From assembly GCF_018977255.1 (NCBI RefSeq), contig NW_024704742.1, positions 125,490,001 to 125,554,000 on the forward strand: a stretch of 64,000 nt of DNA. Reading direction: 5' to 3'. The notes beneath the pieces were generated by a model, which was not told the DNA's origin, made no database searches, and saw only the letters and a list, made by a program, of their open reading frames with translations. The DNA is from Callorhinchus milii (lineage: Eukaryota). Of this stretch, positions 28,676 through 62,110 are shown piece after piece; the stretch's first letter is position 1; each line of letters opens with the position of its first letter. The position numbers and the translations under genes were made by a program.

Positions 28676-28681
28676 ATGGAG
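28676..28681 (+). CDS. DTX3L: DTX3L-like E3 ubiquitin ligase, coding part of exon 1 (Met-Glu)
   Basis: tcaacATGGAG|gtaggt gives a strong Kozak context (A at -3, G at +4) and a GT donor just downstream of a GC/CCAAT promoter. Phase 0 matches the acceptor at 32654. Confidence 0.7.
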
Positions 28682-29696
28682 GTAGGTATTATTGTTGGCT
28701 CTTTGCTCCTGTTTTGTTTCTTTTTTTTGAAAAAAAATTGCAATGACTCTGAAGCAGATGCAATGCAATGGTTGTAGCCTTAACCTCCTCCTTAACCCCC
28801 CCCTCCCCACTATGATTGGGGGCTCAGTAACTACTGGAGTGCATCAGTCTGTTTTATTACCCCATCTTTTATTGTCTGTGTGTGTGTGTCTCCCCCTCCT
28901 CTGAAGCCAGTTATTTCTGGCCTTGTTGACTTCCCAACCAGATCCTATCTGAACCTCCCCTCCCCCACAAATGCAGCTTTAAACAACTTCCTAGGTCAGT
29001 TGTCTGTGTGCTTTTTTTAAAAAAAAAGCAAAAAAAAATTAAAAAATCAATAGCCTAAAACAAGCAGCACAGACCCTGTGCCAATGTTGTTTTGTTAACC
29101 TATGACCGGCTCTTGGGTTTGAGCTGCAAAGCCTGTTTGCACCTGGTTCCTTGGAGCTGCCCGGGGAGGTGTGACCTGGGCTGGCTGGAGGATCTGGCTG
29201 TTTTCAAAGCAAATCATGAGCAGTTTTTCTTTTTTGTGCGTGTTGCATTTTTGACATGGCAATAAGGCTTCTCAAGCAGTATTTCGGTCCGTGTAATACC
29301 TCGTCTGACTGGCAATGGAGCTCCCTGTTGCCATGCATTTTGTTTTTACAATGTGCCCACTCTCTGTAATCACTTAGGAATTTAGAGGTTGCTAAACGAA
29401 ATAAAGACCAAGCTCCATCTAGTTTCGCTTCTACCAACCTGCATGCTACCATAATAGAGAGGTTGGTAGTAATTAATTCTGTATGGATTAGTCTACAACA
29501 GACTGGAAAGCTTTACGTACTTAAGATCCAAAGTTGCCTGGTTCTTCTAAGCATACTACACTTACTATGTGTCGCGTCTCAAATTACTTGTATATTGTTA
29601 TATACAAATATATTATTTTCAAAAATAAATCTTATCTAATTTGAATGAATGAACACTTTCTGCTTGCACCACTTGTTGGGTTTACAATTGTCTTGA

Positions 29697-31160
29697 TATC
29701 ATAGAATTATAAAGCACAGAAGGAGGTACCCAAATCAATTCCACTTCCCCGCGCTCTCTTCATAGCCCTGCAAACTTGTCCTCCCCAAATAATTATCTAC
29801 TTCACTCTTAAAACCACCCTTTCAAGCAATGCATTTCAGATCCGAACACTCGCTGTGTGAAAAAAATTCTCCTCACCTCCCCTCTAGTTCTTTTAACAAC
29901 TATTTTAAGTCGGTGTCCTTGGATTACCGACCCACCCGCCAGTGGAAATAGTTTCTCCTTGTTCATCCTATCGAATCCCCTCATAATTTTGAAAAGTTCT
30001 ATTAAGTCTTGTCTTAACCTTCTCTGCTCCAAGGAGAATAATCCTAGCTTCTCTCGCCTCTTCTGATAACTGAAGTCCCTCATTCCTGGAACATCCTGGT
30101 AAATCTCCTTTGCACTCTCTCCATTGCCTTGACATCCTTCCTAAAGTCCGGTGCCCAGAACTGAACACAGTACTTTAGCTGAGGCCTCACAAGTATTTTA
30201 TAAAGTTTCATCATAACTTCCTGACTTTTGTATTCTATGCCCCTATTAATAAAGGCTAGTATCCCATATCCCATGGAGTCCTGTAGCTCAGTGGTTAGAG
30301 CACTCACTTTGCAAGTGAGAGACCTGGGTTCAATTCCAGGCAGAGGGCGAAACCTTGGGCAAGTTTCCTTACTCCACACGCCTAATAATAATCCCTCCAA
30401 CAAACAAAACAGTAATAAATTGGTCATTTTCAATCCATGATTGTTTGTGGGACATTGCTGTGCGCAATTGCCTGCCCACAAATATACAGTCAATTCACTT
30501 TATAGTCTATTCTGTAAAGTGCTTTGGACGTCTAGAAGACGTGAAAAGCGCTATATCAAATGCAAGGATTATTATTATTATATGCTTTTTTAACAGCAGT
30601 ATCTTCATGTCCTTCCACGTTTAAAGATTTACTTGTATGAACCCTCGGGTCTCTCTGTTCCTTCACTCCCTTTAAGATTGTACCATCAGCTTATATTGCC
30701 TCTCATTCATCCTTCCAAAATGTATCACTTTGCATTTCTCCACATTAAACTTCACTTGCCATGTGTCTGCCCATTTTATCAGTCTATCTATGTCCCTTGC
30801 AGTCTGCTACTATCCTCCTCACTGTTTACTACTTGCCCTAGCTTAGTATCATCTGCAAACTTGGAAACTGTACTCCCTATACCCAAGTCCAGGTCATTTA
30901 TATAGATCAAAAACAGCAGTGGTCCCAATACTGACCCCTGGGGGACACCACTGCACACTTCCCTCCAGTCAGAAATACAACCGCTCACCCATCACTTTCT
31001 GTCTTCCAGCCAATTCTGTATCCATACTGCCACTGTCCCTTTAATGCTGTGGGCTTATATTTTGCATACAAATCTCTTATGTGGCACTCTATCGAACACC
31101 TTTTGAAAATCCATATAAACTACATCAACTGCACTACCTTCACCTTCACTCTGTTACTTC
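29697..31160 (-). mobile_element. 5'-truncated CR1 LINE in DTX3L-like intron 1, interrupted by a SINE
   Basis: Minus-strand ORFs [43 protein letters not shown] and LGLFSLEQRRLR. Confidence 0.9.
30275..30580 (+). mobile_element. tRNA-Ala SINE inserted into CR1
   Basis: Full head-to-tail match to the 17031 element; CR1 sequence resumes on both sides. Confidence 0.92.
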
Positions 31161-32653
31161 ATCAAAAAAATTGTATAATAGTTATCTAAATCCCTATGAG
31201 GTTCCCGTTTGGCTGTGTTAGTACACAAAAATAGTGCTTCGCCGGATGTAAAGTGAAGTGGCTGTATTTTGTGGCGGAATGTGGCAATCAATTTGCACAT
31301 GGCATTATTCCACAAACCGCCATCAAGTGAATTATTCATTTTATCTGGGCCAGGACACTGGGAGAAACACTCTTTGCTTTTTGAATAGTGTTAGGGGATC
31401 TTCAACATCCACCTGAACAGAGGGGATCTCAGCATAATCCGCCTCATTTGAAGGATGGCATCTCCAACGATGCATCATACCCCCAACAGTGGAGTACATC
31501 CTAGCACTATGTTAGAGTGCAAGTCTGGAGTATGTAATAAATGCAATTAGTTGTTGTCATAGGATTGCAGACTACTCTGTGTATTGTCTGGCTTCTGTGA
31601 AACATTGTGAGTGCAGACACTGGATACAAAATTGCCACTAATTTGATAGTAATTGACAATCTGACTGAGAAGCCTAGTAATTGCTGGTGCAGGAATGGGA
31701 AAAGTCACACTGTTGTATTAGATGTTTTGCAACACTTGTTTGGGGCTACGACAAATAACTGGTGCAGAATAAACTGGAATGCTTTGCTCCATAGATGTGT
31801 AGTTAGTTCAAGGTGCTGTGCCTGACTATCGTAGAAAAATGTTCCATTCTCCTTTTACACCCTCCCCATAAGAAAACTAAAGGTAATTTAGGCACTGATT
31901 TCAACAACATGTGTAACTAGTTAGGTCACCTTGGTTAGTGCAGTAGCTATGGGAACATTTGTTGTACAGCTTTTATATTTTTATTAAATCTTGTGAATGA
32001 TACAGTATTACTGATTTTATTTTAAAGCTTCAGAAAGCCTTAGGATATCATAAGTATTTAAAAATAGCTAAAAGTATTTATTGAATGAATAAAGAATATT
32101 CTCTCAACAACAACCTACACTTACATAGCGCCCTTCATGCAGGGTAACATCTAAGAGCACTCAGGAGAATAATTAATGCATAATAATAATCCTTGCATTT
32201 CACATCGGGCGGTGGGGAGAGATGAAAATGAGGGCTTCGAGGGATGTCCTGTAAAGTGGAGTGACTGTATTTTGTGGACGAATGTGGTAGCCAATTTGCG
32301 CACAGCAGTGTTCTACACACAGCCATGAAGTGATTGGCAACCTAGACGTTCTGCTCAGTCATGAGATCCTGCTTCTAAGTGACTTCAGTTCCTAACGCTC
32401 AGCCTTTGAGGCAGTGCCACTTGGGGGTCCGAGGTCTAAATTATTTTCAAGGTCTCAACAAATCCCAGGTAACGGCGTTAGCCAATTGGACATGGTAGAG
32501 TTCAAAACTTAATCATTTTCGCCACCTTCTGCAAAGGTGGCATGAAAGAGGAGACAAATGAATGCTTAATTCACGGTGTATTAAAGTGCTTATTATGTGA
32601 TAAATATTTGCTTGTGGGAATTTTGTATTCATAAAGATTTTTACTACTTCCAG

Positions 32654-33697
32654 GTATTTCCTAAAGTCAAAGCAGTCATCGACTTGCGCATCTTCAAGGA
32701 CAGACATGAGGCGTACAACATTATTCATTCCAATAAAGCACAGTGCAAGATTGGTGCAAATTGTTATGAAGTCACAGGATCATTTCAAGAAATTGATGAG
32801 ATTCACACAAGATTATTGAAACTCAAAGCAGTTTCTTGCAGTGTAAATCCTTCTGCAGCTCTGAGCGCTCCGAATCACCATGCAGAATTATGCATCGACA
32901 AAATATACTTTGACTACATTTCAGCCATTTGCAGCAACCAGCTACGAAATATAGAGCAGGAATGTAACGTTGCCATTAAAAAGACAGAAATAGCTGGAAC
33001 ATGTAAGATTGAATTTCATTCTGTATCAAAAAGCAAAATGATGTCCAGTGCTGCAAAGGACAGATTTATAACTCTGTATCAACGCGTCGCAACAAATTTT
33101 GACTTAAAGACTATAGAACTTCGTAATTTTAGCAAAGAAACAACAGAGAAGGGGATAAGGGCATTCCTTCAAAAGGAATACCCAAAAGTTGTGGTTGAAT
33201 TTAAGGGTCCAAAACTCACTTTAGCTGGAAGCCCCTCTGAAACAAAGAGAGCTGAGATAGCCCTGCTTTCCAACAAGTGTCAGGGTAATCGTTTGAAGTC
33301 AGCAACGAATGCAGCAGCCTCTAACATGGATATCACAGATTCAAGCACAAAACCACTTTCATCACCAAGTCACCACAAAACCAAATCAATTTCTGCTGCA
33401 GCGAGTAGCAAACTGGACTCAAAAGCTGAAGACAAAACCTGTCCAGTTTGCTTAGATGAAATCAATGAGCGAGAGACCTTAAAAAAATGTAAACATTCAT
33501 TCTGCAGGGAATGTATAAAAGCGGCTTTTAGAGTCAAGTCGGCGTGTCCTATATGCGGAGAAGTGTATGGCGAGTTAATGGGTAATCAACCTCAGGCTGG
33601 GACAATGAAATCCTATACCACAGGCATTCACCTTCCTGGCTATGAAAAGTATGACACCATTGTGATAAATTATGCCATACCAGATGGCATACAACAG
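32654..33697 (+). CDS. DTX3L: DTX3L-like exon 2 (348 codons): KH-like region, C3HC4 RING (33440..33556), start of DTC domain
   Basis: Lies within the 373-aa ORF, with acceptor ttccag|GTATTT and donor CAACAG|gtgagt. RING CPVC..CKHSFCREC..CPIC is followed by the Deltex-type YGELMGNQPQAGTM..LPGYE..IVINYAIPDGIQ. Confidence 0.93.
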
Positions 33698-36700: not shown

Positions 36701-36955
<255 letters not shown>

Positions 36956-38451: not shown

Positions 38452-38556
<105 letters not shown>

Positions 38557-39060
38557 AATACTCCAAATATGAACGCTCTTGAGCAACTTAATATGATGAT
38601 TTGTTCTGGGAATTATTGTTGCTCAATTTTCCAGGATGCAGTTAAATTAGAAAATTTACTGCCTGAATATTGTAAATTTGTAAAGTACTTAAATGGATAT
38701 AGTGTTTATCACAATACTGTTATTCATTTATTTGTATGATTGTGTAGCAAATATTTAAAAACCTAAAATGTCTGAAATTCCACCGACGTCTCAAGGTGTC
38801 AGATCAATTTTGCCGTAAAATTTAAGATCGAGCGTGGTTTGTGGAAAAATACTTGAATTCAGTATTCGTTCAGAAACCGTTTTTTCACAGTTCTTAATAA
38901 GAAACTTGGATTCCAAATTGTGATTGAATTGAATCATACACAAGACAGAATTGCATCTAAAATTGATCTCAGACATTCCGATTCTTTGCAGGTGAGTGTT
39001 CAGGTCTACACACAGGCAAGGTTGTACAATAAGTACTGAGATTGATGAGCACCAAAGAGG

Positions 39061-39066
39061 AATAAA
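39061..39066 (+). terminator. Candidate polyadenylation signal of the DTX3L-like gene
   Basis: AATAAA ~500 bp after the stop codon, followed by T/CT-rich sequence. Confidence 0.45.
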
Positions 39067-42000
39067 ATTACATTAAACTATCAAGCAAAATGCATGGATT
39101 CTCTGGACTTTCTCTCAGGACTATTGTATTGACCCTGATGCTTTAATCCTAGTTTAATTCCCTCCTCTTCATGTGTCCTTTTTGCAGTGCTGCCTCTTCT
39201 TCCTTCAGTGCTCTTTCTCCTTCCTGCTGTCTTTCTATGTGAATTTTCTCTTTTTTCTTTCCCTCCCATGTAGTGTCATATAACCATAGAGGTCTCCTCA
39301 TTGTACTAAAACCTGAGATTCCTCAGAGAATCGAAGACCGAGCATGATGTCTTGACTGGATCTGCCACAGGACATGAAAAAAAGTTGAACCAAAAGACAA
39401 TCTCTTCCCCCCGCCCCCCACAAAAAGAAGTAAATTAACTTTAGGCATTCCAGGATAGAGCAAAAACTTGATCAAAAAGGTGATTCCTTTTGTATAAAAG
39501 ACTTGACTTGCATACTAACCAATATTCCTGTGGGCTTCTTGGTAACTTTAGTATAGGTGACTATAAATCGGAACTATTGTATTTTCTGATGTAATAATGC
39601 GTAGGAAAATGATTCCAAAAAGTTCAAGGGAAAATTTGCAAACGGCTGCAGACTCGGAAGGAAAGTGCGTTCGTGATCTGGGAGCACCAGTGGTCTGACA
39701 ATCTTAAAACATTACCAGAAAATATGTATAAACCAGGATTTTACATACAAAAAAGTATAGTTATTATTACAAAGCATTGTGAGGTCTGTTTTGATTTGGG
39801 GATACATTTTATTAGCTTCATGTTGAGTGTTTGCTGCATATTGTCCATCGTTCTTTGTGGTATCTCATAGTATTTCATAGATAATAGGTGGTTACAGGCG
39901 GATAATTCAATCCCTCAAAGTGTTCCTCGTTGCTGTTGATGCTTCCCATAATAACTGGCATAGCAACAATATTAACTACATTTCAAAGCAACTTTTCTAC
40001 AACATTGTTGTTATCCTGGGACTGAGTTACTGTTTTAAATGTGCTATCAGCTATCTTTATTTTACATGAAATGTCTTCTTTATTTAATCTGTTTTGGTAG
40101 ATATTAGACCTGAAGCTATGTGACTCGAACTATGGTACTACCAGAGATTATTCACTTTATCAAAGTAATATGAATCCCCACAGAATCCTCCTTTTCAAAA
40201 ACTAGTTACGCTGAAAAATGTGAAGAGCAATAGTTATCACAATGTGGGATATTCAATCTTTTAGACTCCTATTGGATAACAGTAGATAAACCTCTCTCTC
40301 TCCCCCCCCCCAATGCCACCAGTGGATTTTAAAGATAATAAATAATAACAATCCTTGCATTTGACATAGTGCGTTTCACATCTTCTAGACATCTCAAAAC
40401 ACTTCATAGAATATACTGTTACGTGAATTGACTATTTGTGGGTGAAATGTGCTGCCAATTGCACCCAACAGTGTCCCACAAACAGTCATGGATTGAAGTG
40501 ACCATATTTTTTTAAGTATTATTATCCCCGGAACTCCATCCATTTAAACTGATTTTTCTCTGATGCAAATGGACTCCAGGAGCAAAGTATCCCACAATGT
40601 GGTAACTTGTCATATTATCATTGTTTTGCATTCCCAGTATTTCCTTGTGGCAGCAAGGGAGTGTGTTCAGGTAGAGGAGCTCTGTTCGATCCACTTGGTT
40701 TGAAGTCTGGGTCAGTGTGCTGACTTTTAGATTCTGGCCAGAGCTGTAGACTGCAATCCCAATCTCTTGAGATGCTGTATGCTCTCTGTCTCTTGCCATT
40801 ATGTAAATCTGTAAGCATTTCAAAGGGAGATTGATAAATCTCCAAATTAGTGCTTTGATCTTTAAGATTTGGCTCGAAGGTTTTTATACATTTCTAAAAG
40901 TGGGTCCAGTTCTTATTTCTGTCACCAACCCATTTTGCAGGATTAACCTGAGCAGAAATACTGGACGGTCCAATAGAGGGGAAATGATTTAAGATTATTA
41001 CATGCAAGTTCTTTGCAAAGTTACTTTAAGAGCCCACCGGGCAGGAGCATTGTGCTTTCAGGTTTATAACCTGAGATTCTGTATCGTAACATTAAATTGG
41101 TGTGGTAGAATGTGTGAGATGACCAACCATCACTTTGTCAAGACTATACAACTTAATTGAATAAACTGCTTTGTGTGGTTGAATTGCCACTGTAAGATTC
41201 AACCACATGGTCCATTTACTGCTCTTGACCCAAAGCTGGTGTGTAGATGGGAATCCGTGTCCCATTTTGTTAACTTCCAAAGCTTCTCCCCCAGAGAAAT
41301 CAAACTCTTTTTGGACTGGTGATAGTGGAATCCTTCAGCACATTCAGCAGCTGCTGTGGCTGGGGTTTTCTTATGTGGGGTTATTCGAGGTCATGAAACT
41401 CTTACGAACTCGTATCTTTGCCCTCCTCTACTCTATGGATGACCCTTCAGTATTCTCTGGTGCAATAACTGAGTACTCGTATCTGCCCATGGTATTGATC
41501 ATTATTCCGTTCTCTCCTCTTACCCTGCACCCCCACCAAACCTCAGTGTTGTGGCTTTTACCGCTACACTATTTAACATCCACCATATATACCAGCCTCT
41601 TCAATCCCTGTATGTCATTTTCGAATGATTGTGCATTTCATGTCTAGCAGGAATACTTTCCAACGTCTAGTTTGCAGCAAAATGTAGGATTCCCCTACCA
41701 CCATCAATGATATTTAGGTGATGAGAAATAATTATTTTGTAAATCGTGCTTTAGGATTGGTACAATTGCATTTTTTTACACTCTATGGAGTTTTGTTACC
41801 CAGCTTGTGGGGATTTTGACCTGTCTCCAATCATACTATTTGAAGAATTGCTCCAATGTTGATCTGAAGTTCTGTTACGCACTATAAAATTATTGAATTT
41901 TCATTAGGGAATAAACACTGAGTGATCATTGCTTTTCTCTTCCTTGTTTGTTTCTCCCAAGTCTCAAATACATCAATATTATTATCTCCAAACTATTCCC

Positions 42001-44166: not shown

Positions 44167-44368
44167 GGGGAGAAATTCGACTTTGGGTCTAGATTGATGC
44201 TAAGGAGCATTTCAGAATGTCCAAAATTTGGCAAAATCTAAAATAGTCTTAACTTTGGAGCTGGTTTTCTGTAAATTGGCTTCAAAGATCAAGGCTGCTT
44301 TCAGCAATTTGCCAAATTTTTATGCTCCAAAATGCTTAGAAATACTGAGACTGAGTAAGTCTAGATGC
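44167..44368. mobile_element. Palindromic MITE-like element (dispersed family)
   Basis: Starts GGGGAGAAATT; perfect inverted repeat AAAATTTGGCAAA 44223..44235 / TTTGCCAAATTTT 44308..44320, with further pairing outside it. Confidence 0.65.
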
Positions 44369-48600: not shown

Positions 48601-50152
48601 ATGTCTATAATATTTGTTACAAGAAAAGTTTTACTCCCAAATTGTACCTTTCAAGCTAAAACTTGTTGCCAGTGATGATTATTTGCAAACTGAATAGCCA
48701 ACCCCTCACAAGGTAAGGGACAAAAGTTTTTTTTTACTTTGAACAACTTTCACTTACAATCGCGAACTTCATTCTGTAAACTTATTTGATCCATACCTGA
48801 TTATGTTTGTAAACCATCTGAAACTAAACTCAGGGTCACTGAATGAATGGAGTCAGCAAACAGGAAGTGAAGCTGGGCACATTTTGTGACAAATTCCAAA
48901 ATTAGAACTCTAAACTCCAGGTTGACTCTGGACTGTTTTTGATAAAGAAAGTGGTGCAGCAAGTGTCCCAAAGTGTCTTTGTGCTTGTGTCTCGGTTACC
49001 TTCTTTGACTCGGAAATATTTTTAATGAAAAATACATAAACTGCAATGCTCTCTTCGTGTTACCATCCCTTTTCAGCACAGTTTGAACATGCGTACAGTA
49101 ACATGGGCTGAATACATCTGTTCAGCTGCAGTTCCTCTGCAATTCAATATGTCCACACAATATTAAACATGAACCTGTTTTTTCTCTTCCACCCCCCCAA
49201 AGCGCTGAAATAAGAGTAGTCATTAAAATTATCATCATTCATACATGGTGGATTGCAAATGGAGTTGGATGATTCAAATTGACACTTCATGTTGCATACT
49301 TCATTACAATTGGTTCTTGCAAAATGAATTTGTTTGAAAACAGAAGCCAATTATTCCGTTGCGTGACGATGATGCCATCAAATCAATGTCACCTGGTCAC
49401 ATTCACATGCTTTAGTCAAAGATCATATAATATTAGATCAAAATAGTTTCTAAAAATCTCATGGGCGTTTTTTTATTTTTTTGTTCTTTTTTTTTAAATA
49501 ATACCCATCCCCCCCAAAAAGCCAGCATTCAAATCTCAATGTAGAAATGTAATCAGTCGGGAGTTCATCAGTGAGAGAACTGAAAAGGTTTAAGAGCGAG
49601 TGCTCTCTTGATTGCATTTGTCCCACTGAGAAAACTACAAAAGAGTGTGCTGTCTGCAAGGAATATGCTTCATCAGCTGGATACAGTGGTAAAACAGTCC
49701 AACCGTACCATAACTTGTTCCTTTCCATTCGAAGAGTTAGCATTGAAGACCGATTCCTTATTTTCTTCGAGCAGAAATATGTCACTTTCTTCAAAAATGT
49801 TTTAAATCATTTCAATATATCAGAATTCCCATTTTCGTTGGTGCCGTCTCTGTGTGCTGGAATCCGGTTCCGTACTCCGCTAAAAACCAAGAACACTGTG
49901 ACATTTTGCATACCTCACTTCGGCTTCTTACATACGCTACTGGCCCCGGTTTTACTACTCTGTTTTTAGGAGTGATGGCTCCTGTGTAGGACACAGCTTA
50001 AAAGAGAAAAATGTAAGTCTCGAACGTGAAAGTTGGCCTCGCCAGAGCCCATTAGATGGGGTTTGGTTCAAATTAAGCTGCACTCAAAGCACCTCAGGCA
50101 GCTATTTCATTTAAAAATAATTTTTTTACCATTGTAGATTATGATTTTAAAA

Positions 50153-50158
50153 TTTATT
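50153..50158 (-). terminator. Candidate PARP8 polyadenylation signal
   Basis: TTTATT on + (AATAAA on -) ~670 bp past the stop; an alternative lies at ~49472. Confidence 0.35.
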
Positions 50159-50820
50159 AAGACACACGTAAGACCATGGTTTGGCTGGCACAGCCAGGAT
50201 ACTATGGCACACACTGACTTTAAAAGCACAGACTTCTGTTCCCAAAGGGACACTATATTAGCAATTCCAAAACATTTTAAATAACTGCGTAAAAAAAACT
50301 TTCATAAACAGTGGGAGGAAATGACTCATTAAGTCACTTCGTGCTTGTGGTACATCATTCCTCTTCAGTGTTCCTACACGTCAGATCAGTGGATACGTAG
50401 CGTTGTAAACTGCATTTTCAAGTCAATTGCCACAGCTTTTACATTGCTCTGCGCTTTGCCAAGACTCTCGGGTTCACCAAAATTAGCACCAGAGCATAAC
50501 TCGGCCACTACTCTGCCGATCCTGCTCTCAATTTTCCATCAGTGCCTATGCTGAATAAAACCGGGGCCACCCATCTTTTCCAGGAGATCTTACTGTAACA
50601 AAGTCTTATTGAATGTTGCGACAACACCGCCACGTTGAGACGTGTCAATTACTAAAATGGTTCAGACAAGAGATCTGGAAAATGAAAGTAGTGCCTTATT
50701 CAAAACCTTATGTTGTGTGCAATTGAAATTAGGTTGTTGTTACATTTTGTTCAAAACTGCACTGCAGCTTCAAAGCCAGAAAAGGTGTTCTGATCCAGTC
50801 AGTGGTGGCATGTGATTCTT

Positions 50821-50923
50821 TCAACCTGTTGCTGTCTGATTTCCAATGACCCGCAGGATTTCTTTATGAATGCTGGATTCCTGTGTGTTTATATTGGTGT
50901 CGCCCACTTGGCCGTCTTCATAT
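50821..50923 (-). CDS. PARP8: PARP8 terminal coding exon (V)YEDGQVGDTNINTQESSIHKEILRVIGNQTATG*
   Basis: tttcag|A...TGA; C-terminus GNQTATG recognised as PARP8. The 10 exons total 771 nt, in frame. Confidence 0.95.
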
Positions 50924-52035: not shown

Positions 52036-52120
52036 ACAAAGAAGAACCTTGTGCAGACGTGTTCTGTTTGTGGAACTACCCAAATTTCTCCATGTTTGTG
52101 CAAATCTGGTGAAGTAATTG
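52036..52120 (-). CDS. PARP8: PARP8 exon (A)ITSPDLHKHGEIWVVPQTEHVCTRFFF(V)
   Basis: ttgcag|CA...GT|gtaagt, 85 nt; GEIWVV places Ile at the third triad position (H-Y-I, mono-ART type). Confidence 0.94.
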
Positions 52121-52666
52121 CTGCAAAAAAAAAGAATCTTTCTTAGTCTTTAGGTTCTCTTCATTTTAAATATAAATTTTCTTCACTTTTCTCATTGTTT
52201 TCTTCCCTTTTCCCCCTCCTTTCCTGAGTGCAGTTTATGTGGTGCTCTCTGGCCGTGGGAATTATTTGATACAGTACAATTTACATTTATATAGGGCCTT
52301 TCGAAGCATATGTGGCTGGAGCCAGGGTGGGGAGGGAGCTGAAGAAGGTGGGGAGGGTAGAATGACCAAAAGTGGGGTGAGAAATAAATCTCAAGGAGGA
52401 CTGTGAATGTGGAGAGGAAGGGGCAAGTCAAAGTGACTTCAGTATGGAAGTCTAGAGAGCAGGGGGCAGAAAGTTCACTTGCCAATGGTAGGGTGGGTAG
52501 GGCAGGGGACATGAAGCAGGTTTGAGGTTTGGTAGGGTTTGGGGAGGTTACCGAGGTCGGATGGGGCAAGACCGTGGAGGGATTTGAAGGTGAGAGTGAG
52601 GATTTTGAACCTAATGGACATTCAGTGTATTGTAGCAGGTTTTGTGTAAAGCTAGGAATGTCGTAC

Positions 52667-52736
52667 CTTCACATAAGGCTATACACTTCAGGTTACGACT
52701 CTGCAAAAACTGGGGCTGCTGTCCTTTTTTCTGTGA
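52667..52736 (-). CDS. PARP8: PARP8 exon SQKKGQQPQFLQSRNLKCIALCE
   Basis: gtccag|TCA...GAAG|gtacga, 70 nt. Confidence 0.94.
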
Positions 52737-52937
52737 CTGGACAAAAAAGGAGACAGATTAGTTTGATTCACAGAATGTTACCCATAGACTTACAAAGAAC
52801 ATTATAGGATGGAAACAGGTCATTCGGCCCAACTTGTCCAACCCGTGCTAGTGTTTATACTCCACACTTTCACCTCTCCTAATTCCCTTTCTGATATTCC
52901 TCTCATTCATCTCCTGGAACAAGTGAGTGAGTCTTAC

Positions 52938-53011
52938 CTGCAAAGTGGCTGCTTTATTGTTTGAAGGTTGTTCATCCTTGGACGCTACCTTCTGCTGCTT
53001 TTTATTCATCC
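52938..53011 (-). CDS. PARP8: PARP8 exon (G)MNKKQQKVASKDEQPSNNKAATLQ
   Basis: cttag|GG...CAG|gtaaga, 74 nt; GMNKKQ..KDE is PARP8-like rather than PARP6-like. Confidence 0.9.
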
Positions 53012-54922
53012 CTAAGTGGAACAAAAGGCAAAAGCATTTCAGACACAGCAAAGCAGGTATCACCACTCAAGCAGTCTTCAAACCAATGAAGCCATTCTGG
53101 TTTCCAATACAATTATATGTTTACGAATTCTAGGCTTTCAGAAAATGTGGACTCCATTACGTCAGCCACAACTGCTTATAAACTGTAACTACGATACAAT
53201 ATAGCACCGTTCACATCAGGAGGACGTCTTAAAGCATTTAACATTGTTGTCTGGGCACCTGTGCTCAGGGTGGAAAGGGGCAAGTTGATCAGAAGTGCAG
53301 TCGAAGAGTTTTATTTTGAGTCGAGCACTGTAGCTCTTTTGGGCTGAAGTGTCTTCTAGCCCAACACAGCAGTGCGTGCAAAGTGCCATCATGCAGCAAC
53401 TACAAGAACAACAGTTTGCACTTATACAAGCACTTTTCACATAGCAGAACATCTCAAAGTACTCGACAGAGACAGCCTGGGAGATAGGCGTGGGTGGGAG
53501 GGGAATGAGATAGGTGCAAAGTGGCAAAAGGTGCAGTCAAAGGAACAGGTTTTTAAGATGGATTTTGAAAGCAGAGAATTTCATTCAACAAATTCAGCTC
53601 ACGAGTTCATAAATTGAACCCCAGCATCCATAAGTCACTGAGATCATGGCTGGATCTAGAGAGATTAAGGGATATGGGGATAAGGCAGGCAGATGGAGTT
53701 AGGTTAGAAGATCAGTCATGATCTCATTGAATTGTGGGGCAGGCTCGAGGGGCCGAATGGCCTACTCCTGGTCCTAATTCCTATGTTCCTATCATGAAGC
53801 AGTTCAATACAGTGCACGAGAAGAAAGCTGGGAGGCTCCACCATTGTAAAAGATCCCTATCTTAACCTAAAGCTCCCACTGACCAGTCAAACAGAAGGTG
53901 CTTCTCTTCACAATGGGGTCATACCTAGAACCATAGAAATTGACTACACATCATGTCTCTTTAAAGAACAATTCTTTCAGTCCCATTTACCTACCGTTTT
54001 ACCCATACCCATGTAGTTTGCTCCTTTTTAGATAACTATCTAGTGAAGAACAGCCAGTCTGGTGAGATATTGGCAGATGGCTGTAGCTCAATGTACTATG
54101 AGCCAGCAGGAGAAGGCGCATTTAAGTAAGAAGGGCAGAAAAGTGGAAGGAAATAAAAAAGGTAGGAGCCAGTACATAAACCATAACATTCAGTGCTCAA
54201 AAGTGTTTTTGGGAGGGGGGTGAGGGGGGGGCCTGAAAAGGCCCAAAAGGAGTAAATTGCAGGTTTGGGATTTACTCTAATGATGTATTTAATGATACTA
54301 ATGATAATTTCACTCTCAAAATACAGTCAATTCACTTTACTCTATATCCTGTGAATCACTTTGAGACATCTCAATGACATGATAAGGTGAAACATCTAAA
54401 AGTACAACAGTTTGCACTTTTCACTTAGAAGAACATTTCAAAGTACTTTACAGAAACAGAGATGGTGGTGGAGGGGTGGGGGCGTGGGGTGAGATAGGTG
54501 CGAGGTGGCCAAAGGTACAGTCAAAGAGACAGGTTTTTAGATGGATTTTGAAAGCAGAGAAGTTCATTGAACTGATTCAGCAACAACAACAAAATGACAT
54601 TTGTATAGTGCCTTTCACATCGGGAGGACGTCCCAAGGCGCTGGACAGTCAGAGTTTCGGACCCAAGCTGGGGGGTCGGGATTGGGAAGGTTAGAGGGCA
54701 GGGGGTAAGCCGGGTGATCGAAAGCATGGTCGAAGAGGAGGGTCTTGAGATGGGTCTTGAAGGACGCAAGGGAGGGGGCGAGGCGGAGGGCTTGCGGGAT
54801 GGAGTTCCAGAGGATGAGGGAGCAGAGTGGCAAAAGATTCAGCTAACAAGTTCACAAATCAAATGCAAGGAATATTATGTGAGTAAGAATGGACTGTCAC
54901 ATTCAACCTCAATGATACTTGC

Positions 54923-54992
54923 CTGAGTAACCAAAAGAAATACTTGACAATGGGCTAAGGTAGATGCCATTTCCATACACTGCACCATGGAG
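54923..54992 (-). CDS. PARP8: PARP8 exon LHGAVYGNGIYLSPLSSISFGYS(G), followed by a GC donor
   Basis: ccacag|CTC...CAG|gcaagt, 70 nt; contains the GIYLS motif of the ART fold. Confidence 0.92.
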
Positions 54993-55632
54993 CTGTGGAA
55001 ATCAGGGAAACAAACAGTTATAAAATAGATGAACAAGAAAAATAATTCTTCAGATTATTGGATGGTACTTTGAATTATACATTCAAACAGATATATAACA
55101 AAATAAAATGACCTTTTAAGGCTAGAACAACAAGCTATTATTAATATTAATAACAACCTGCCTATATATAATGCCCTTCATGTAGGATAATGTCTCAGAG
55201 TGAATTACAGCGGAAGTTTCTTTTTGGTTAGCCGGGTGTCTGACACCTACAGAAATCACCACTCTAACCAAACCAATCTGCGAATTCCACGCATCAAACC
55301 TACACATAGAAATTCCAGAGGTAGATTGTTGGAATAGAATACACATTCTCTCCTTGAGGGACAGATCCTGCTTACCTAATTCTGGAAAGTATTAGGCGCA
55401 GGTTGGCAGGAGCCTTGGCTTGGGGTCTTCAGAGTTGGGCATGTTGGGGTCGCTGGAGTCTAACCAGCTAAAACCACACAGCTTGCCATTGATAGCACTG
55501 TCTGGCAAGCAATCCCACCGCTTGCCCAGCTAGGATCACCCTACCCCTCAGAGCTTTGGCTTGCAGGGTTAAAAGGAGGTCAGTGAGAGGATATCCTGCC
55601 CATATTGACTGGTTTCCCCTTCTAAGTCCTGA

Positions 55633-55954
55633 TAATAATAATAATAATAATAATAATCCTTGCATTTGATTTTGCGCTTTTCACGTCGGGAGGACGTCCC
55701 AAAGCGCTTCACAGAACACACTGTAAAGTGAATTGACTGTATATTTGTGGGCGAACGCGGCAGCCAATTGCGCACAGCAATGTCCCACAAACAGTCATGG
55801 ATTGAAAATGACCAATTTATTATTGTTTTTTTTTGGAGGGATTATTATTAGGCGTGTGGAGTAAGGAAACTTGCCCAAGGTTTCGCCCTGCCTGGAATTG
55901 AACTCAGGTCTCTCACTTGCAAAGCGAGTGCTCTAACCATTGAGCTACAGGACA
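55633..55954 (-). mobile_element. tRNA-Ala SINE
   Basis: Near full-length reverse-complement match to the family. Confidence 0.92.
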
Positions 55955-56314
55955 GGATGATGAGCAAGGTGGCTGTACTGCCATCAGCAGTGTCCTGGAA
56001 TACTGTAGATCTGCCTGGCACAGGAACCGGGAGAGGAGTAACACATGAACTCACCTGTTCATTATAAAGTAGTCAAGGATACTTTATGAGATGCTGAGCA
56101 CAAATGAATGAAATAAGTGAAAGACTAAAACTTGAGGCCCTTTGAGGGCTCCTGAATAACAAGTACGACCACTACAACATCACCTCTAAAGAAGGAAGGT
56201 GGTGCAAAGGTGTAGGTGTCATGTACCAATACATGATTGAGAACAGTATCTAATTTGTAAAGAACTAACTGAGCACTTTGCTCATACAGGTTTCAGAGCA
56301 CGGTGTGTCCTTAC

Positions 56315-56387
56315 CTGTAATCTTGTGTTTGATGCAACAATTAAACCGTTCCTTAAAATTGAGTGCCAGTTCTCTATGTGTGAGCCA
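56315..56387 (-). CDS. PARP8: PARP8 exon (H)GSHIENWHSILRNGLIVASNTRLQ
   Basis: ccacag|T...CAG|gtaagg, 73 nt; PARP6/8 signature HGSHIENWHSILRNGL. Confidence 0.95.
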
Positions 56388-56843
56388 CTGTGGACAGAGC
56401 ACAAACACAGTCAGTATCTAACAAGCTTCTGCTTCAGAACTGTTTTAGTTTGGCCGTGTTGTAACACGTCCCGTTGAGAGCGCATCCTTTAAAATACATG
56501 TGTCTTGAGGGCACGCAGTTACCCAAAACCTGCTACAGTTCCAGCCAGTCAGCCACGACCTGTTTCACGAGTGGTAGAAATACTTGCAAGAGCAATCGCG
56601 ACTGATCTGTCAGCTTTCTGCGCGCTACACTTATGCATAGGAAGCCAGCGAGTCTGTGCTGGAAGCTATGTTAGCAGCAACCTAATATACAGTATTTAGT
56701 AAATAGGTCAATATCATGAGTCCAAATATATATATAGATATGCATATATGGACAAATTGTAGAAAAGGCCGGAGAGCAGAGCTTTTATCCAGGCCTACGG
56801 GAGAAGCCGTCTTACGTCTTCAAAGATAAAAGCAGAAACTCAC

Positions 56844-56956
56844 TGAAATGCAAAGGTGCTCCCGTAAAGTTTCTTTGCTGCCCTGAAATTGGATTCTTTG
56901 GCCGGTGGACTGCTGAGGAGCAGGAACTGATGCGGGGTGTGCATGAACTTCAGTTG
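56844..56956 (-). CDS. PARP8: PARP8 exon QLKFMHTPHQFLLLSSPPAKESNFRAAKKLYGSTFAF(H)
   Basis: cacag|CAA...CA|gtgagt, 113 nt; the catalytic His codon is split across the junction. Confidence 0.95.
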
Positions 56957-58090
56957 CTGTGTGAAAGAGGAACGTGAGAACGTTACAATACAGCCACTAA
57001 ACTCACTACAGCACCAAGCAATTGGCACAGCTGATCATTCTGCACTGGCCACTCCTGCCTCCCTCCGTGTGTTAAAATCTATGTTTAGAATAATCCCTGC
57101 GTTTGATATATCGTCTTATCACGTCATTGAGATGTCTCAAAGCTCTTCACAGGATTTTACTGTAAAGTGCAGTGACTGTGTATTCTGTAAGTGCTATACA
57201 AATGTAATTTGTTGTTGATTGTTTTTGTAGGCAAATGTGGTAGCCAAAGTCCCACAAACAGCCATGAAGTTAATGACCAAGTTATTATGGAGGAGTGGTG
57301 GCCAGGACACCGGGAAAAACACCCTTCTCTTTTCGAATAGTTGGGATCTTGGGATCATTGTATAATTTCTCCCAAAACACACTTCTGTGGTGTTTTAGGA
57401 AGGATGACACAGGGGTGGGAGGAAATCTTAGTAGGAACCCACTGCTCAAGTATATCACAATGTCACTAACACTGCATTTGTCATGCAGTGTAACAAGCTT
57501 GTAGCTTTTTTGTAGGACTTCTTTGTTGCTTATGAACCCGGCTAATAGATTATTTGATATCTTATTCGGTGTTTTGATCGCAACTGGGTGGTTGAAAGTG
57601 CAGTACAGTACAATGCATCCTAAATTATAACACTAATAAGAGAGGGGTTTTGGGGTCAGCCGGATGTCTGACACACAGAAACCCATCACCATGTTGAAGA
57701 ATATCCAAACCAAACTCCTGAGATATTTCTATCTGTCTGCTATGGACACTCTCTCCTTGGAGGGATACACCTTGCATTACCTAATCCTGGAAAGTAACAT
57801 GAACAGGTTGGCAAGAGCCAAGGCCATAAACCCCAGGATACTGCCGGAGTTTAACCAGCTAAAACCCAGAAGCTTGCCATTGAGAGCACTGTTTGATCTC
57901 AGGTGGTCTACTTGGAACGAAAGGGGGGGGCGGTGCGCGGAATATAGTTGAACGTATCAGAGTTGGAGTCATTGCGGTATTTAAGAATATCGCATAAATT
58001 GTAGCTCACACAAAATATTTAATTTAAGAAACACTTAAATTCACTTTTACATGGAAGCAAATTGTCTGCATAGCACTGAGCGAGACTCAC

Positions 58091-58139
58091 CCTATTTACA
58101 GGTAACTTTACAATGTGGGACCTGTTACTGGAAATAATC
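58091..58139 (-). CDS. PARP8: PARP8 exon (W)IISSNRSHIVKLPVNR
   Basis: cactag|G...AGG|gtgagt, 49 nt, phase-compatible with neighbours. Confidence 0.93.
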
Positions 58140-58619
58140 CTAGTGGGAAAGAGACATATTAGTGTTACTCTGTATCCTTGGAAACAAATTTCTGAAATTC
58201 CACTTTGAATATTCAGAAACAGATTAACAAGTCTAAAAGATTTACTGGTTGTCACTGGTGAATGAGACACAGGCAAAGTGTGGCTGAACATAATGGGTTT
58301 TTAATGAAATCTGACCAAATAAAATCAGAAATGCTGCATGGTTGGAGAGATCAGCTCTGGCTGTCATAGAGGAAACAACACATAAAAAACACAAGCAAAT
58401 CTTCCAAATAGAAAGGAAAAGACACACTAAACTAGATACATTGATGATATCCTGTTAGAAACCATCTACTCCCATCCTTCCAGAACATCCACCTTACTAT
58501 CTCCCCGTCTCAGCATCAAGCTGTGTTTTTAAATGAGTCCAGTATCTTAACCTCAACCACCCATCCTGGCAATACGTTCCAGGGATTAATTACCCTCTGG
58601 GAAAGAAATACTTCCTGGA

Positions 58620-59222
58620 ATCCCTGATCCAAGCTTTCATTATGTCCTGGCTTGACTGCGCCAACTGCCTGTTCACTGGACTTCCCAAATCTTCCCTCCA
58701 CAAACTGCAGATTGTTCAGAACTCTGCAGCTTGTGTCCTCTCCCGCACCATGCTCCGGGAACCTATCACACCCGTTCTTGCCCGGCTTCACTGGCTCCCC
58801 ATTCCTCAGAGAATCGAGTACAAAACCTTTGTTCTTACCTTCAAAGTCCTCTACGGTCTTGCTCCCCTCTGACCTCATAACCCCATATCAGCCTGTCCAC
58901 CCACTCTGCTCGGCAGCCTGGTTCAGGTCCCCTACACTTCCCACCCCACTGTTGGTAGTCAGGCATTCAGCATCTCTGCCCCCATACTCTGGAACTCTAT
59001 CCTGCAATCCCTCCATCTCACCCCCTCTCTTGCCTCCTTCAAGTCCCATCTGAAGACCTTCCTCTGACCGTGCCTTCGGCCACCCTCCTACCCTCAACCC
59101 CCTCCCCTCCTCCCCTTCTGACACCAACGCCAAGCTTGGGTCCAAAACCCCTGATTATCCAGCACGCTGAGACATCTTTCCGACGTTAAGGGTGCTATTC
59201 AAGTGCAATTTGTTGCTGTTGT
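58620..59222 (+). mobile_element. L2 LINE 3' end in a PARP8 intron
   Basis: LQIVQNSAACVL..ITPVLARLHWLPIPQRIEYK. Confidence 0.88.
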
Positions 59223-59578
59223 AATCTGTCCTGAAATTGCCATTTGAAACTCTAAAGTAACGCTATAAAACTACGTGAAGACAGACATTAGGAAAAATTG
59301 GCAATGAAGATCAAAGCTAGGAGCTCCAAACAGATAACAGCATTCACACTTGCATCATGTAAAACAAGAATTGGTTAGATGAGTATTCAGTACTGTTGAG
59401 GTCAATGAATGAATGTGATAAGGATAGACTTAAGTAGAGGGCCCATTATGAAAGTGCGGGTTATGATAATGTGAACGGCATGCTTTGGATGAGAAAGGAA
59501 TGAGAGAGACAGAGCACAGGAACTTGCTTATTCCATCTTACAAGTTGTGAATGGTGTTGAATATTTCAATAGAAATAC

Positions 59579-59646
59579 CATTGTAACAAAGGATGTGCCA
59601 GAGGATCTTGCTTATCCATCTGCTTCTTGATTTCCAAGTATGGTGC
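59579..59646 (-). CDS. PARP8: PARP8 exon APYLEIKKQMDKQDPLAHPLLQ(W)
   Basis: AG/GT boundaries, 68 nt, phases 0 to 2. Confidence 0.93.
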
Positions 59647-61099
59647 CTGTCAAAACAAACAGCAAAACGTCTTTCCCACTTCACTGGAAGTAATAAATTA
59701 AAATTGAGAGCACAATGTTACAAGAGCCCTCTGTCACAAGCGTGCCACATTATACGGGGCTACTGAGGATATATCATAACCGGCTATAAATTAGAACTGT
59801 ACTACTGAGTAATGGTTAGATTGCTGGATGAAAATCAAACACATGTGGTGCAGAGAGCTGTGATATTCTGTTTCACATGGAAGGTGAAAAGTGCAATGAG
59901 CTACAGGAAAGGAATAATGTGAATAATGTGATGTGATTCATCAAATCTATTATGAAGCATCGCATTTTTCACCCCTTTATTTCTAAAATTGTTTGGTTGT
60001 ATTTTATGCATATGCAGTAAAGCCCCATTATAAAGCAAAGTTTGGGATCCATCATATCCCCACCCACACACAGTATATATCCCCACCCACACACAGTACA
60101 CAGTGTTTGACTGCACACACAACAGCTTGTTCGCTCCTAACACACTGTCCGATTCAGCGCTAAAGGAAGAAATGTGTGTCTTCTGTGTCAGTGAGTCACT
60201 GACAGCCTACAAATGTTTCTTCTACGAACACATAGTCACTCCCTTCACAGTAGAAATCCTGTAAAGTACTTTGGAATGTTCTCTCAATGTGAAAGGCGCT
60301 ATAAAAACTGCAACAGTTATTATTCATAATAACTGGCTGACTTCCCAGTCATTAGGCCATCACCGTCATCATTTCCTACTTTACACAATGGATTTAAAGA
60401 TCCATCAAAATGTAATAAACTCGTAGAATAGTCTCCAAGGGCTAAATGGCCTCCTTCTGTACCTGGTTTCCTATAGTTCCTTGGCTCTTGTCAATCTGTC
60501 CTTAACACTTTCTGGAATTAGGTAAGTAGGGTGTGCCCCTCAGGTGCGCACCTTGGAAGGATGTGCAAACTTCATTTCATGCAAAGGGAAATTTCCATAT
60601 GTAGGTGGAACTCTCGGTCTGATTTGGATACCTTAAGCGTGGTGATAGCCTTTCGTATGTGTTGACTGACCAAAAAATGTATAATAATCCCTGCATTGGA
60701 TATAGAACCTTGTCACACTGTCGAGAGGTCTCAAAGCGCTTCACAGGATTTCTGTCAAGTGCAGTGACTGTGTTTGTGGACTAACGCAGATATCAATTTG
60801 CACACAGCAATAATAATAATCACCCTTGCATTTAATATAGCGTCGTATTATATCTTCGAGACATCTAAAAGCACTTCAAAGAATATACTGTAATGTGGAC
60901 TGACTGTTTATTTTATCAGCGAAACACAGCAAAGAGTCCCACAAACAGTCATGGATTGAGTGACCAAATTATTATTATTATTAGGTAAACAAAGACGTGT
61001 GGAGTAAGGAAACTTGTCGAACATTTCGCTCTGCCCGGGAATTGAACCCAGGTCCTCTCGCTTGCGAGGCGAGTGCTCTAAACAATATGATACAGGACT

Positions 61100-61320
61100 C
61101 CACAAACAGCAATGAAGTGAATGACCAATTTTATCTAGGGTGTTTGTTGGCCAGCATACCAGGAGAAAACTCCCTTTTCTTTTCAAATAGTGGCATGGGA
61201 TCTTTAGCGTCCACCTGAACAGGCGGACGGGTTCTTGGTTTAATGTCTCATCCAAAGGATGGCACCTCCAATACTGCAGCACAACCCCAGCAATCCATTG
61301 AAGTGTCAACCTAGAATGTG
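61100..61320 (-). mobile_element. Older Deu-domain SINE (AmnSINE/SacSINE-like); related pieces at ~7440-7700, 12150-12270, 19290-19490, 31240-31500 and 34130-34370
   Basis: ggatgagacattaaaccaag..ttcaggtggacgctaaagatcccatgccacta on the minus strand recurs in diverged form at the listed positions. Confidence 0.7.
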
Positions 61321-62044
61321 ATTTTGGAGTCCGGACATATAATCATTGATAAGCACAACTGCACAAAACATACTCAAAAAGAAGAAATAACTTAAAACAT
61401 ACAAAATAGTAATATGTTTAAGAGTTGTGATAGATGTAGTTTGTAGCGCGTAGCATGTACCAGAAACCATCCAATGCAGTGATTCTTTGTAAGAGTTGGA
61501 AATTACACTGTATGATCCAGAGAGTGAATTTCTTAATGTGGATTGGAGCATTGTTCTACTGCAATCATTTAATCTTGCAAGTTTTTCCCGGAGAGCTTAT
61601 GAACAATTGCAATCCAATTTTAATGTATGAAATAAGGTTATGTTTATAATGTAACATTATTTTTAAGTTGGAATTGCATGACATTATTTCTGCAAAACTC
61701 ACCGAACGGAGATGAATAGTGCCTTGGGCACATTAACAAACATGGAGCAGAACAATCAATAGTTGGGGAGTTAAAAATAAGTATTGCACTTCATATGTTA
61801 TAATAATATTCCTTCATTTTATAAGTGAATGACCAATACATTTTGCATAGCATCCAGAATTTGGCAAATTCTTAACACAGTCTGAATTTTGAAGACGTTT
61901 TTCTGTACGTTTCTTTAAGAACGATGGAAAAACAGCTTCAAAGTTAAGACAGAATTCAGAACTAAAGTTCTGAGCTCCCTAAATTGCTACATAAATAGAG
62001 TAAATCTAAATCTAGGTGGAATTTCGCTCCAAAGTATGTCTTAC

Positions 62045-62110
62045 CTGGGTCATTTCCCTGATGGATGTGATGCTATCCAGTGCTTTAACTAAACGTTCAT
62101 AGTCTTTTTT
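62045..62110 (-). CDS. PARP8: PARP8 coding exon KKDYERLVKALDSITSIREMTQ (most 5' exon found in the window)
   Basis: tacctag|AAA...CAG|gtaaga on the minus strand; 66 nt; peptide recognised as PARP8. Confidence 0.92.

What the first reader, a model, noticed from the sequence alone, without database searches (positions are those of the whole stretch)
28676..62110. Deltex E3 ligase tail-to-tail with PARP8 instead of head-to-head with PARP9
Seen: an intact RING-DTC Deltex gene on + converges on PARP8 on -, with stop codons ~12.3 kb apart. No macrodomain/PARP9 exons were recognised in the 28 kb upstream. Known: mammalian DTX3L shares a bidirectional interferon-inducible promoter with PARP9 and works with it; RING-DTC modules bind and ubiquitylate ADP-ribose; PARP8 is a poorly characterised H-Y-I mono-ART; human PARP8 has no Deltex neighbour. 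Inference: this may be a separate Deltex paralog lost in mammals, possibly marking another ART-writer/Deltex-reader pairing. Adjacency alone does not prove a functional link.
Basis: partly seen in the sequence, partly recalled or inferred. Interest (0 to 1): 0.8.

Follow-up and report, generated by a model that had tools for sequence, protein, structure and literature searches.

The report
Short fish Deltex ligase beside PARP8
This is a separate, shortened relative of the antiviral ubiquitin ligase DTX3L that sharks and many bony fishes keep next to PARP8 and land vertebrates seem to have lost; nothing yet shows that the two neighbours work together.

Summary
Observation confirmed. The window is Callorhinchus milii DNA. 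An intact four-exon, 445-aa Deltex gene converges on PARP8, with 12,264 bp between the stop codons and no PARP9 nearby. It is probably not canonical DTX3L, despite NCBI's label. It belongs to the group named si:dkey-3h3.3 in fish and lacks the RRM and one KH pair. Another chimaera gene (C27) groups with DTX3L (94/93). Records of 21 other fish species put it on the same contig as PARP8, 10 with consecutive identifiers. Only 1 of the best 120 hits to the lungfish orthologue is a named tetrapod protein, and that is a long DTX3L. So it was probably lost in tetrapods, not only mammals. The ADP-ribose-activating His-Glu pair is invariant in 46 of 46 sequences. A trout orthologue is virus-induced; PARP8 is not in that list. 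Most likely it is an inducible Deltex E3 held beside PARP8 by ordinary ISL1-PARP8 synteny. A dedicated PARP8 partnership is untested (about 12%).

The parts
28295..28306 (+). Perfect match to an IRF-binding consensus, 381 bp upstream of the Deltex ATG (candidate interferon-response element)
Evidence: Only match in the 64-kb window; 17 of 100 shuffles give at least one somewhere in the window.
28676..28681 (+). Deltex coding exon 1 (Met-Glu)
32654..33697 (+). Deltex exon 2: D2-like alpha/beta domain, two KH-like domains, disordered linker, C3HC4 RING and start of DTC
   Evidence: covered by spliced contigs
36701..36918 (+). Deltex exon 3: DTC core with His412 (equivalent to DTX2 His582)
38487..38556 (+). 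Deltex exon 4, coding part: Glu438 (equivalent to DTX2 Glu608) and stop
38557..40370 (+). Minimum Deltex 3' UTR
   Evidence: The spliced contig X2 record 1 runs from exon 2 to 40370
40371..45530 (.). Middle of the gap, largely covered by unstranded contigs (40475-42154, 42940-44904) that cannot be assigned to either gene; broken by SINE-like repeats
45531..50820 (-). Minimum PARP8 3' UTR in run X4
   Evidence: X4 record 22 covers 45531-50923 and goes on for 1067 letters past the 5' edge of the last exon
50821..50923 (-). PARP8 last coding exon with stop
52036..62110 (-). PARP8: nine further exons (62110-62045, 59646-59579, 58139-58091, 56956-56844, 56387-56315, 54992-54923, 53011-52938, 52736-52667, 52120-52036) encoding the helical extension and ART domain
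   Evidence: The spliced product equals P0311 residues 621-876; Pfam PARP

Best explanation
The gene is a distinct, short DTX3L-type Deltex paralog (the si:dkey-3h3.3 group). It has stayed between ISL1 and PARP8 since at least the ancestor of sharks and ray-finned fishes, survives in coelacanth and lungfish, and was probably lost on the tetrapod stem. Mechanism: the RING recruits E2~ubiquitin and the DTC binds ADP-ribose. His412-Glu438 activate its 3' hydroxyl, so ubiquitin is put on ADP-ribosylated proteins or nucleic acids (inferred from DTX2; the residues are shown, the activity is not). The N-terminal D2-like domain probably drives self-association and the single KH pair binds a partner or nucleic acid (inferred). 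The gene is probably switched on by interferon or infection (shown only for a trout orthologue). It reads ADP-ribose made by whichever ART is active. PARP8 is its neighbour because the ISL1-PARP8 block has stayed intact in slowly rearranging fish genomes, not because the two form a dedicated unit.
For: Paralog: five DTC loci in the genome. C27 groups with 12 long DTX3L-type proteins at 94/93 while the window gene does not. AU tests reject tetrapod-type DTX3L (p=0.005) and DTX3 (p=0.0001) as sisters of the lungfish/coelacanth orthologues. The linchpin is Gly in 46 of 46 family members, against Gln in C27 and Gly in only 4 of 65 DTX3L-clade proteins. The protein is colinear with a long DTX3L minus the RRM and one KH pair. 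A review lists si:dkey-3h3.3 apart from zebrafish dtx3 and dtx3l (PMC8961608, passages). Synteny: 21 of 21 comparable species share a contig length, 10 with consecutive identifiers; an ISL1 gene lies 187 kb upstream. Activity: His412 and Glu438 are invariant in 46 of 46 and map to DTX2 His582/Glu608 (PMC7615817, passages). Induction: trout ENSOMYG00000033909 rose 6.0-fold (padj 9e-13) in one line after VHSV (PMC12648952 supplement); one IRF-type site upstream.
Against: The shark plus bony-fish group has only 66/85 support from RING-DTC. A tree forcing the shark/chimaera genes together with DTX3L and excluding C27 is not rejected (p=0.065). C27 has a frame break in its large exon in this assembly. 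Tetrapod loss rests on the best 120 of 1339 hits. Trout induction was only 1.6-fold (padj 0.067) in the other line, and the second trout copy is not in that table. The IRF-type site is weak statistically. The only documented ISL1 enhancer I read of lies in a 1.4 Mb desert, and the paper never mentions PARP8 (PMC7530604, passages), so regulatory constraint on this side is not shown. Synteny is inferred from identifiers, not coordinates.
Confidence: 0.7

Rival explanations
1. A real PARP8-Deltex unit: the pair is kept together because PARP8 writes mono-ADP-ribose that this ligase ubiquitylates, or because their long convergent 3' UTRs or shared elements couple their expression.
For: Adjacency inferred in sharks, rays, bichirs, paddlefish, gar and eel-group teleosts. 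Spliced contigs leave at most 5.2 kb unassigned between the transcripts, most of it also covered. PARP8 is predicted to carry E2-like RWD domains (PMC10450202, passages). DTX3L-PARP9 linkage correlates with co-expression (bioRxiv 10.64898/2026.04.23.720386, first two of eight parts read).
Against: A tail-to-tail layout gives no shared promoter. PARP8 is absent from the trout ISG table that lists the Deltex orthologue and PARP9 and from all 10 supplementary files searched (names may be missing there). The two proteins evolve at very different rates. PARP8 stays 80-84% identical in tetrapods. The paralog PARP6 has no Deltex in the 30 kb at its 3' end. The chimaera DTX3L-like gene is far from PARP9, so Deltex-PARP function in fish does not need linkage.
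Confidence: 0.12
2. The window gene is the older, longer form of the DTX3 lineage: DTX3 arose from it by duplication and N-terminal trimming, so tetrapods lost the locus but kept a descendant.
For: The group is sister to DTX3-like proteins in all three trees, with weak support (42/81). Both have a glycine linchpin (PMC7615817). No DTX3 proper was found in this assembly. The DTX3 N-terminus scores weakly against the family's KH profile (E 6e-4).
Against: DTX3 (P0032) as direct sister of the lungfish/coelacanth genes is rejected (p=0.0001). Teleosts carry both genes. An unnamed DTX3-like protein (P0036) branches below P0032 and the goby DTX3-like unit, so DTX3 may be equally old.
Confidence: 0.1
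3. The window gene is simply the chondrichthyan DTX3L orthologue, as NCBI labels it, and C27 is a decayed or separate copy.
For: NCBI name. Colinear domains with DTX3L. AU p=0.065 does not reject it. Frame break in C27.
Against: C27 sits in the DTX3L clade at 94/93 with a Gln linchpin. Ray-finned fishes carry both a PARP8-linked short gene and separate DTX3L-type genes. The chimaera gene shares architecture and neighbour with the short gene. A similar one-base slip sits in the DTX1-like gene, which suggests assembly errors.
Confidence: 0.07

Closest known systems
si:dkey-3h3.3 (ZFIN ZDB-GENE-060526-299; NCBI usually 'E3 ubiquitin-protein ligase DTX3L')
   Same: Same family by full-length similarity, tree and PARP8 neighbourhood; the name appears on the Conger member and on trout genes.
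   Different: Only listed, not studied: one main-text mention found. I found no paper describing its age, its PARP8 linkage or its tetrapod loss.
DTX3L of tetrapods (DTX3L-PARP9-PARP14 system)
   Same: No WWE; D2-like and KH-like domains ahead of RING-DTC; same His-Glu pair; orthologue induced by virus in trout.
   Different: 445 aa against about 750 aa. No RRM, and two KH-like domains where DTX3L's D3 has four; the segment after the first pair, where the PARP9-binding strand is modelled (PMC10955461, passages), is replaced by a disordered linker. Not beside PARP9. Outside the DTX3L clade. Gly linchpin.
DTX3
   Same: No WWE; glycine linchpin; weakly supported sister group in RING-DTC trees.
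   Different: DTX3 lacks the three-domain N-terminus (no KH_DTX3L hit); teleosts have both genes.
DTX1/DTX2/DTX4
   Same: RING-DTC fold and ADP-ribose pocket (6y22, 6y5n).
   Different: They have WWE domains and different intron positions in the DTC.

Membership tests
Deltex E3 ligases | RING directly followed by a C-terminal DTC domain | tested here: met
   Pfam RING 265-303, DTC 312-444 at 205 bits; model matches 3pg6 at rmsd 1.4
Deltex E3 ligases | His-Glu pair that activates the ADP-ribose 3' hydroxyl | tested here: met
   His412/Glu438 align to DTX2 His582/Glu608 (offset worked out by me); invariant in 46 of 46
Deltex E3 ligases | Ubiquitylates NAD+/ADP-ribose in vitro | not testable with these tools
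   Needs an enzyme assay
canonical DTX3L | N-terminal RRM (D1) | tested here: not met
   No RRM hit in P0001, present in long P0039; the alignment starts at P0039 residue 140
canonical DTX3L | D2 alpha/beta oligomerisation domain | tested here: met
   Residues 1-60 align to P0039 140-200, its DTX3L_a-b region; the Pfam model itself does not hit P0001, and oligomerisation was not tested
canonical DTX3L | D3 of four KH-like domains that binds PARP9 | tested here: not met
   One KH pair only; P0039 residues about 373-510 have no counterpart
canonical DTX3L | Head-to-head with PARP9 | tested here: not met
   Not diagnostic in fishes, where the locus is reported absent
canonical DTX3L | Falls in the DTX3L clade | tested here: inconclusive
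   The best tree puts C27, not this gene, in the clade (94/93); the forced alternative has p=0.065; for the lungfish/coelacanth orthologues it is rejected (p=0.005)
canonical DTX3L | Interferon-inducible | tested here: inconclusive
   Trout orthologue 6.0-fold in one line, 1.6-fold (not significant) in the other; one IRF-type site in chimaera
DTX3 | Short N-terminus without the KH_DTX3L array; member of the DTX3 clade | tested here: not met
DTX3 | Glycine at the RING linchpin | tested here: met
   G304, 46 of 46
DTX1/2/4 | Tandem WWE domains | tested here: not met
   No WWE hit
si:dkey-3h3.3 group | D2-like + KH pair + RING-DTC, about 420-540 aa, beside parp8 | tested here: met
   tree support for the whole group is only 66/85
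Linked ART-Deltex pair of the DTX3L-PARP9 kind | Shared bidirectional promoter | tested here: not met
   The genes are convergent; PARP8's first exon lies about 190 kb from the Deltex ATG
Linked ART-Deltex pair of the DTX3L-PARP9 kind | Co-expression and physical complex | not testable with these tools
   No stranded, quantitative RNA data or interaction data were available

The most novel reading that the evidence does not exclude
Jawed vertebrates began with a second Deltex-ART module: an inducible short Deltex that ubiquitylates ADP-ribose written by PARP8, whose long 3' UTR nearly meets its own. Tetrapods dropped it at about the time DTX3L moved next to PARP9, leaving mammalian PARP8 an orphan. 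Fish would then offer a direct handle on PARP8's unknown function.
Probability: 0.12. Interest if true: 0.78.

Novelty: new member of a known kind. Interest (0 to 1): 0.42.

Why it matters
The Deltex family is usually described from its five human members. Fishes keep at least one more ancient member that databases label DTX3L. That can mislead orthology, fish interferon-gene lists and evolutionary studies of DTX3L-PARP9; I could not see whether the 2026 preprint separates the two, because its figures and supplements were not visible. The gene is a natural deletion variant of DTX3L (D2-like domain kept; RRM and one KH pair gone), useful for asking what those parts do. Its D2-like domain in a chimaera also questions the statement that D2 emerged with amniotes (PMC10955461). 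If the PARP8 link proved functional, it would open the function of one of the least understood human ARTs.

Tried and rejected
Complex prediction of the whole Deltex with two structured parts of PARP8 (residues 165-312 and 505-876): verdict 'no answer', score 0.00, alignments not used; it carries no weight either way. Sequencing-run search: no RNA holder listed on record; contig depths were not used to assign segments to genes. Contig ends near poly(A)-like hexamers (42158 on +, 42949 on -) come from one study and coincide with repeats, so they do not fix the transcript ends. A second promoter IRF-like site at 28056 did not survive a strict pattern. Deltex beside PARP6: the one weak hit has stop codons in the frames read. 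A genome PARP-domain search gave 19 matches, none on C27, C23, C10 or C8, but it also missed PARP8 itself, so it is uninformative. DTX3 proper and DTX4 were not found in this assembly; this may be an assembly gap. Supplements of a turbot and a lumpfish poly(I:C) paper held none of the search terms; a trout IPNV paper names only 'DTX3L-like' loci that I could not assign; a fish ISG review does not mention Deltex. The journal version of the zebrafish ISG paper is not held; the preprint calls dtx3l an ancestral ISG without naming this paralog in the passages seen. Earlier findings of the scan: nothing returned. The 74-row careful tree did not finish and its quick version was used; the 40-row careful tree left out the long-branch C23 gene. 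Five of the 172-row set's candidates were dropped for lacking a usable RING-DTC. Dropped from the synteny count as not comparable: Latimeria (no contig given), Chiloscyllium plagiosum (shared record), Acipenser ruthenus (two PARP8 copies; lengths 117.4 and 120.3 Mb do not match), Protopterus (no PARP8 record seen).
Full report
Observation. The window is chromosome-scale contig C1 of the genome G000, bases 125,490,001-125,554,000; the protein database names the organism Callorhinchus milii. Four exons on + splice to exactly XP_007890397.1 (445 aa) with three GT-AG introns. Ten exons on - splice to residues 621-876 of PARP8 XP_042191283.1. The stop codons are 12,264 bp apart. None of 28 Macro matches lies on C1, and PARP9/PARP14-like exons find no coding match in 58.7 kb upstream. 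The next landmark upstream is an ISL1 gene, 187 kb from the ATG (ISL1 rather than ISL2 rests on the PDB match and recalled human gene order). I did not survey the whole 187 kb for other genes.

Anatomy. The AlphaFold model (mean pLDDT 82.7, 46-sequence alignment) shows three small alpha/beta domains (about 7-57, 80-149, 152-212), a disordered linker (215-259), RING and DTC. Foldseek matches RING-DTC to DTX1/2/3L structures and the N-terminal part, weakly, to KH proteins (E about 2e-4). Against a 751-aa DTX3L-type protein the family aligns from its D2 region through the first KH pair, skips the second pair, and resumes at the RING; the RRM is absent. His412 and Glu438 correspond to DTX2 His582 and Glu608, which are needed to put ubiquitin on the 3' hydroxyl of ADP-ribose (PMC7615817, passages). 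Both are invariant in 46 of 46 aligned members; among all 120 hits the His motif is in 120 and the Glu motif in 119.

What it is. The genome has five DTC loci (a lower bound): the window gene, two WWE-type genes (C10, C8), a long divergent gene (C23) and a long KH-RING-DTC gene (C27). A macrodomain-KH-WWE-PARP gene facing two PARP14-like genes lies on C6; I call it PARP9-like from its domains and recalled gene order. No Deltex hit falls in 120 kb of gap-free sequence around it. This agrees with a preprint that dates the DTX3L-PARP9 locus to after the lungfish split and never mentions PARP8 (10.64898/2026.04.23.720386; first two of eight parts, one methods section and passages read; figures and supplements not seen). 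In a 40-sequence maximum-likelihood tree of 182 RING-DTC columns, C27 joins 12 long DTX3L-type proteins at 94/93. The window gene joins sharks at 98/96, and sharks plus bony-fish short genes form a group at only 66/85. Of the long proteins only one (Thamnophis) carries a species name; my 'tetrapod-type' and 'fish-type' labels for the rest come from the tree and domain layout. DTX3 was recognised by the first residues quoted in PMC8961608. AU tests reject tetrapod-type DTX3L (p=0.005) and DTX3 (p=0.0001) as sisters of the lungfish and coelacanth genes. They do not reject shark genes plus DTX3L without C27 (p=0.065). The linchpin residue is Gly in 46 of 46 members, Gln in C27, and Gly in 4 of 65 DTX3L-clade proteins. 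One member is named si:dkey-3h3.3, which a review lists as one of eight zebrafish Deltex genes.

Distribution. With the lungfish orthologue as query, 1339 proteins scored and the best 120 were listed. Of these, 104 carry a species name: 103 are fishes in the wide sense (sharks, rays, chimaera, ray-fins, coelacanth, lungfish, one lamprey) and one is a snake's 761-aa DTX3L with 50% cover. The 16 unnamed hits are each 57-89% identical to a named teleost or ray protein. Tetrapod loss is therefore likely but not proven. The lamprey protein's place is unresolved.

Synteny. I could not read other animal genomes, so I compared record identifiers and contig lengths. In 21 of 21 comparable species both genes lie on a contig of the same length. 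Ten have directly consecutive accessions or locus tags: Chiloscyllium punctatum, Mobula birostris, Scyliorhinus canicula, S. torazame, Polypterus, Erpetoichthys, Conger, Albula, Gymnothorax and Synaphobranchus. Four are close: Mobula hypostoma, Cetorhinus, gar, and paddlefish on one 218-kb scaffold. Seven share the contig only, three of them with distant numbers (Carcharodon, Pristis, Hemiscyllium); the chimaera's own adjacent pair also has distant numbers, so distance does not refute adjacency. Four species were not comparable (see Tried and rejected). Orientation, lungfish, coelacanth and all cyprinid, salmonid and spiny-rayed teleosts were not tested. The linkage is thus at least as old as the split of sharks and ray-finned fishes.

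Expression. Contigs from two of four runs join exon 2 to exon 4 with an exon-3-sized insert, and one runs on to 40370. In another run a contig carries PARP8's last exon and 5.3 kb beyond its stop (four runs, two studies, unstranded, RNA status guessed). At most 5.2 kb is left between them, mostly covered by unassignable contigs. Whether the 3' UTRs overlap is open. The only perfect IRF-type consensus in the window lies 381 bp before the ATG (17 of 100 shuffles give one somewhere in the window). In trout head kidney after VHSV, an Ensembl si:dkey-3h3.3 gene rose 6.0-fold (padj 9e-13) in line B57 and 1.6-fold (padj 0.067) in AP2. It is filed as a conserved ISG under the family name DTX3L. PARP9 is in that table and PARP8 is not (PMC12648952; passages and supplement rows; one supplementary file was unreadable).

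How it most likely works. Shown: intact gene, spliced form, RING-DTC with the catalytic pair, ancient position. Inferred: a Deltex E3 that ubiquitylates ADP-ribosylated substrates, probably in antiviral responses, self-associating through its D2-like domain and lacking the KH segment modelled to bind PARP9 (PMC10955461, passages). The PARP8 adjacency is best read as inherited gene order in the ISL1 block. ISL1 has a large regulatory landscape (PMC7530604, passages), though that paper does not mention PARP8. Convergent genes share no promoter. PARP8 is 81-92% identical across five fishes where the Deltex is 42-56%, and it remains about 80% identical in tetrapods. PARP6 has no Deltex at its 3' end. 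In favour of a link are the age of the adjacency, the near-meeting transcripts and PARP8's predicted E2-like RWD domains (PMC10450202, passages).

Novelty and verdict. The gene is annotated, but under a name that hides its status. Four searches of the paper library found no description of its age, linkage or loss; the library omits most subscription papers, and preprint supplements were closed. It is a new member of a known kind. Interest 0.42; a functional PARP8 pairing is about 12% likely and would deserve about 0.78.

Noticed in passing
G000:C23:9140336-9144640 (L022): A long (over 1100 aa) divergent KH-RING-DTC gene. The His and Glu of the catalytic pair are replaced (Pro and Ala in my spliced reading) and the RING is irregular: possibly a Deltex that no longer acts on ADP-ribose. 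The neighbour looks like VAT1 (recalled).
   Followed up: partly
G000:C27:3977510-3979387 (L060:2510-4387): A 626-aa open frame with DTX3L-type KH-like domains but no RING-DTC found in the 15 kb behind it; a myosin light chain gene follows (recalled).
   Followed up: partly
G000:C27:4933704-4935960 (L015): The likely true chimaera DTX3L orthologue. Its large exon has a frame break near 4934130, either an assembly error or decay. The next gene looks like SPRYD3 (recalled; no Pfam hit).
   Followed up: partly
G000:C6:10667000-10740000 (L033-L040): PARP9-like gene head-to-head with two PARP14-like genes and no Deltex between them; the PARP9-like gene has a WWE hit (27 bits).
   Followed up: partly
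window 32654-32830 (Deltex residues 3-60): A D2-like domain, including the start of its first strand, is present in this chimaera paralog, whereas PMC10955461 states that D2 emerged with amniotes.
   Followed up: partly
P0011, P0164 (Chiloscyllium punctatum, Hemiscyllium ocellatum): The 720-aa models carry an internal duplication of the KH pair and a RING-like stretch in two related sharks.
   Followed up: no
P0044, P0061, P0109; second unit of P0342: A further group of very short RING-DTC proteins sister to DTX3 (96/84 for two of them); one goby model fuses such a unit to a DTX3-like unit, suggesting a tandem neighbour of dtx3.
   Followed up: no
G000:C8:6999845-7000005 (L047): One-base slip in a coding exon of the DTX1-like gene, probably an assembly error.
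   Followed up: no
window 54922-53012: PARP8 has a GC-AG intron here.
   Followed up: no
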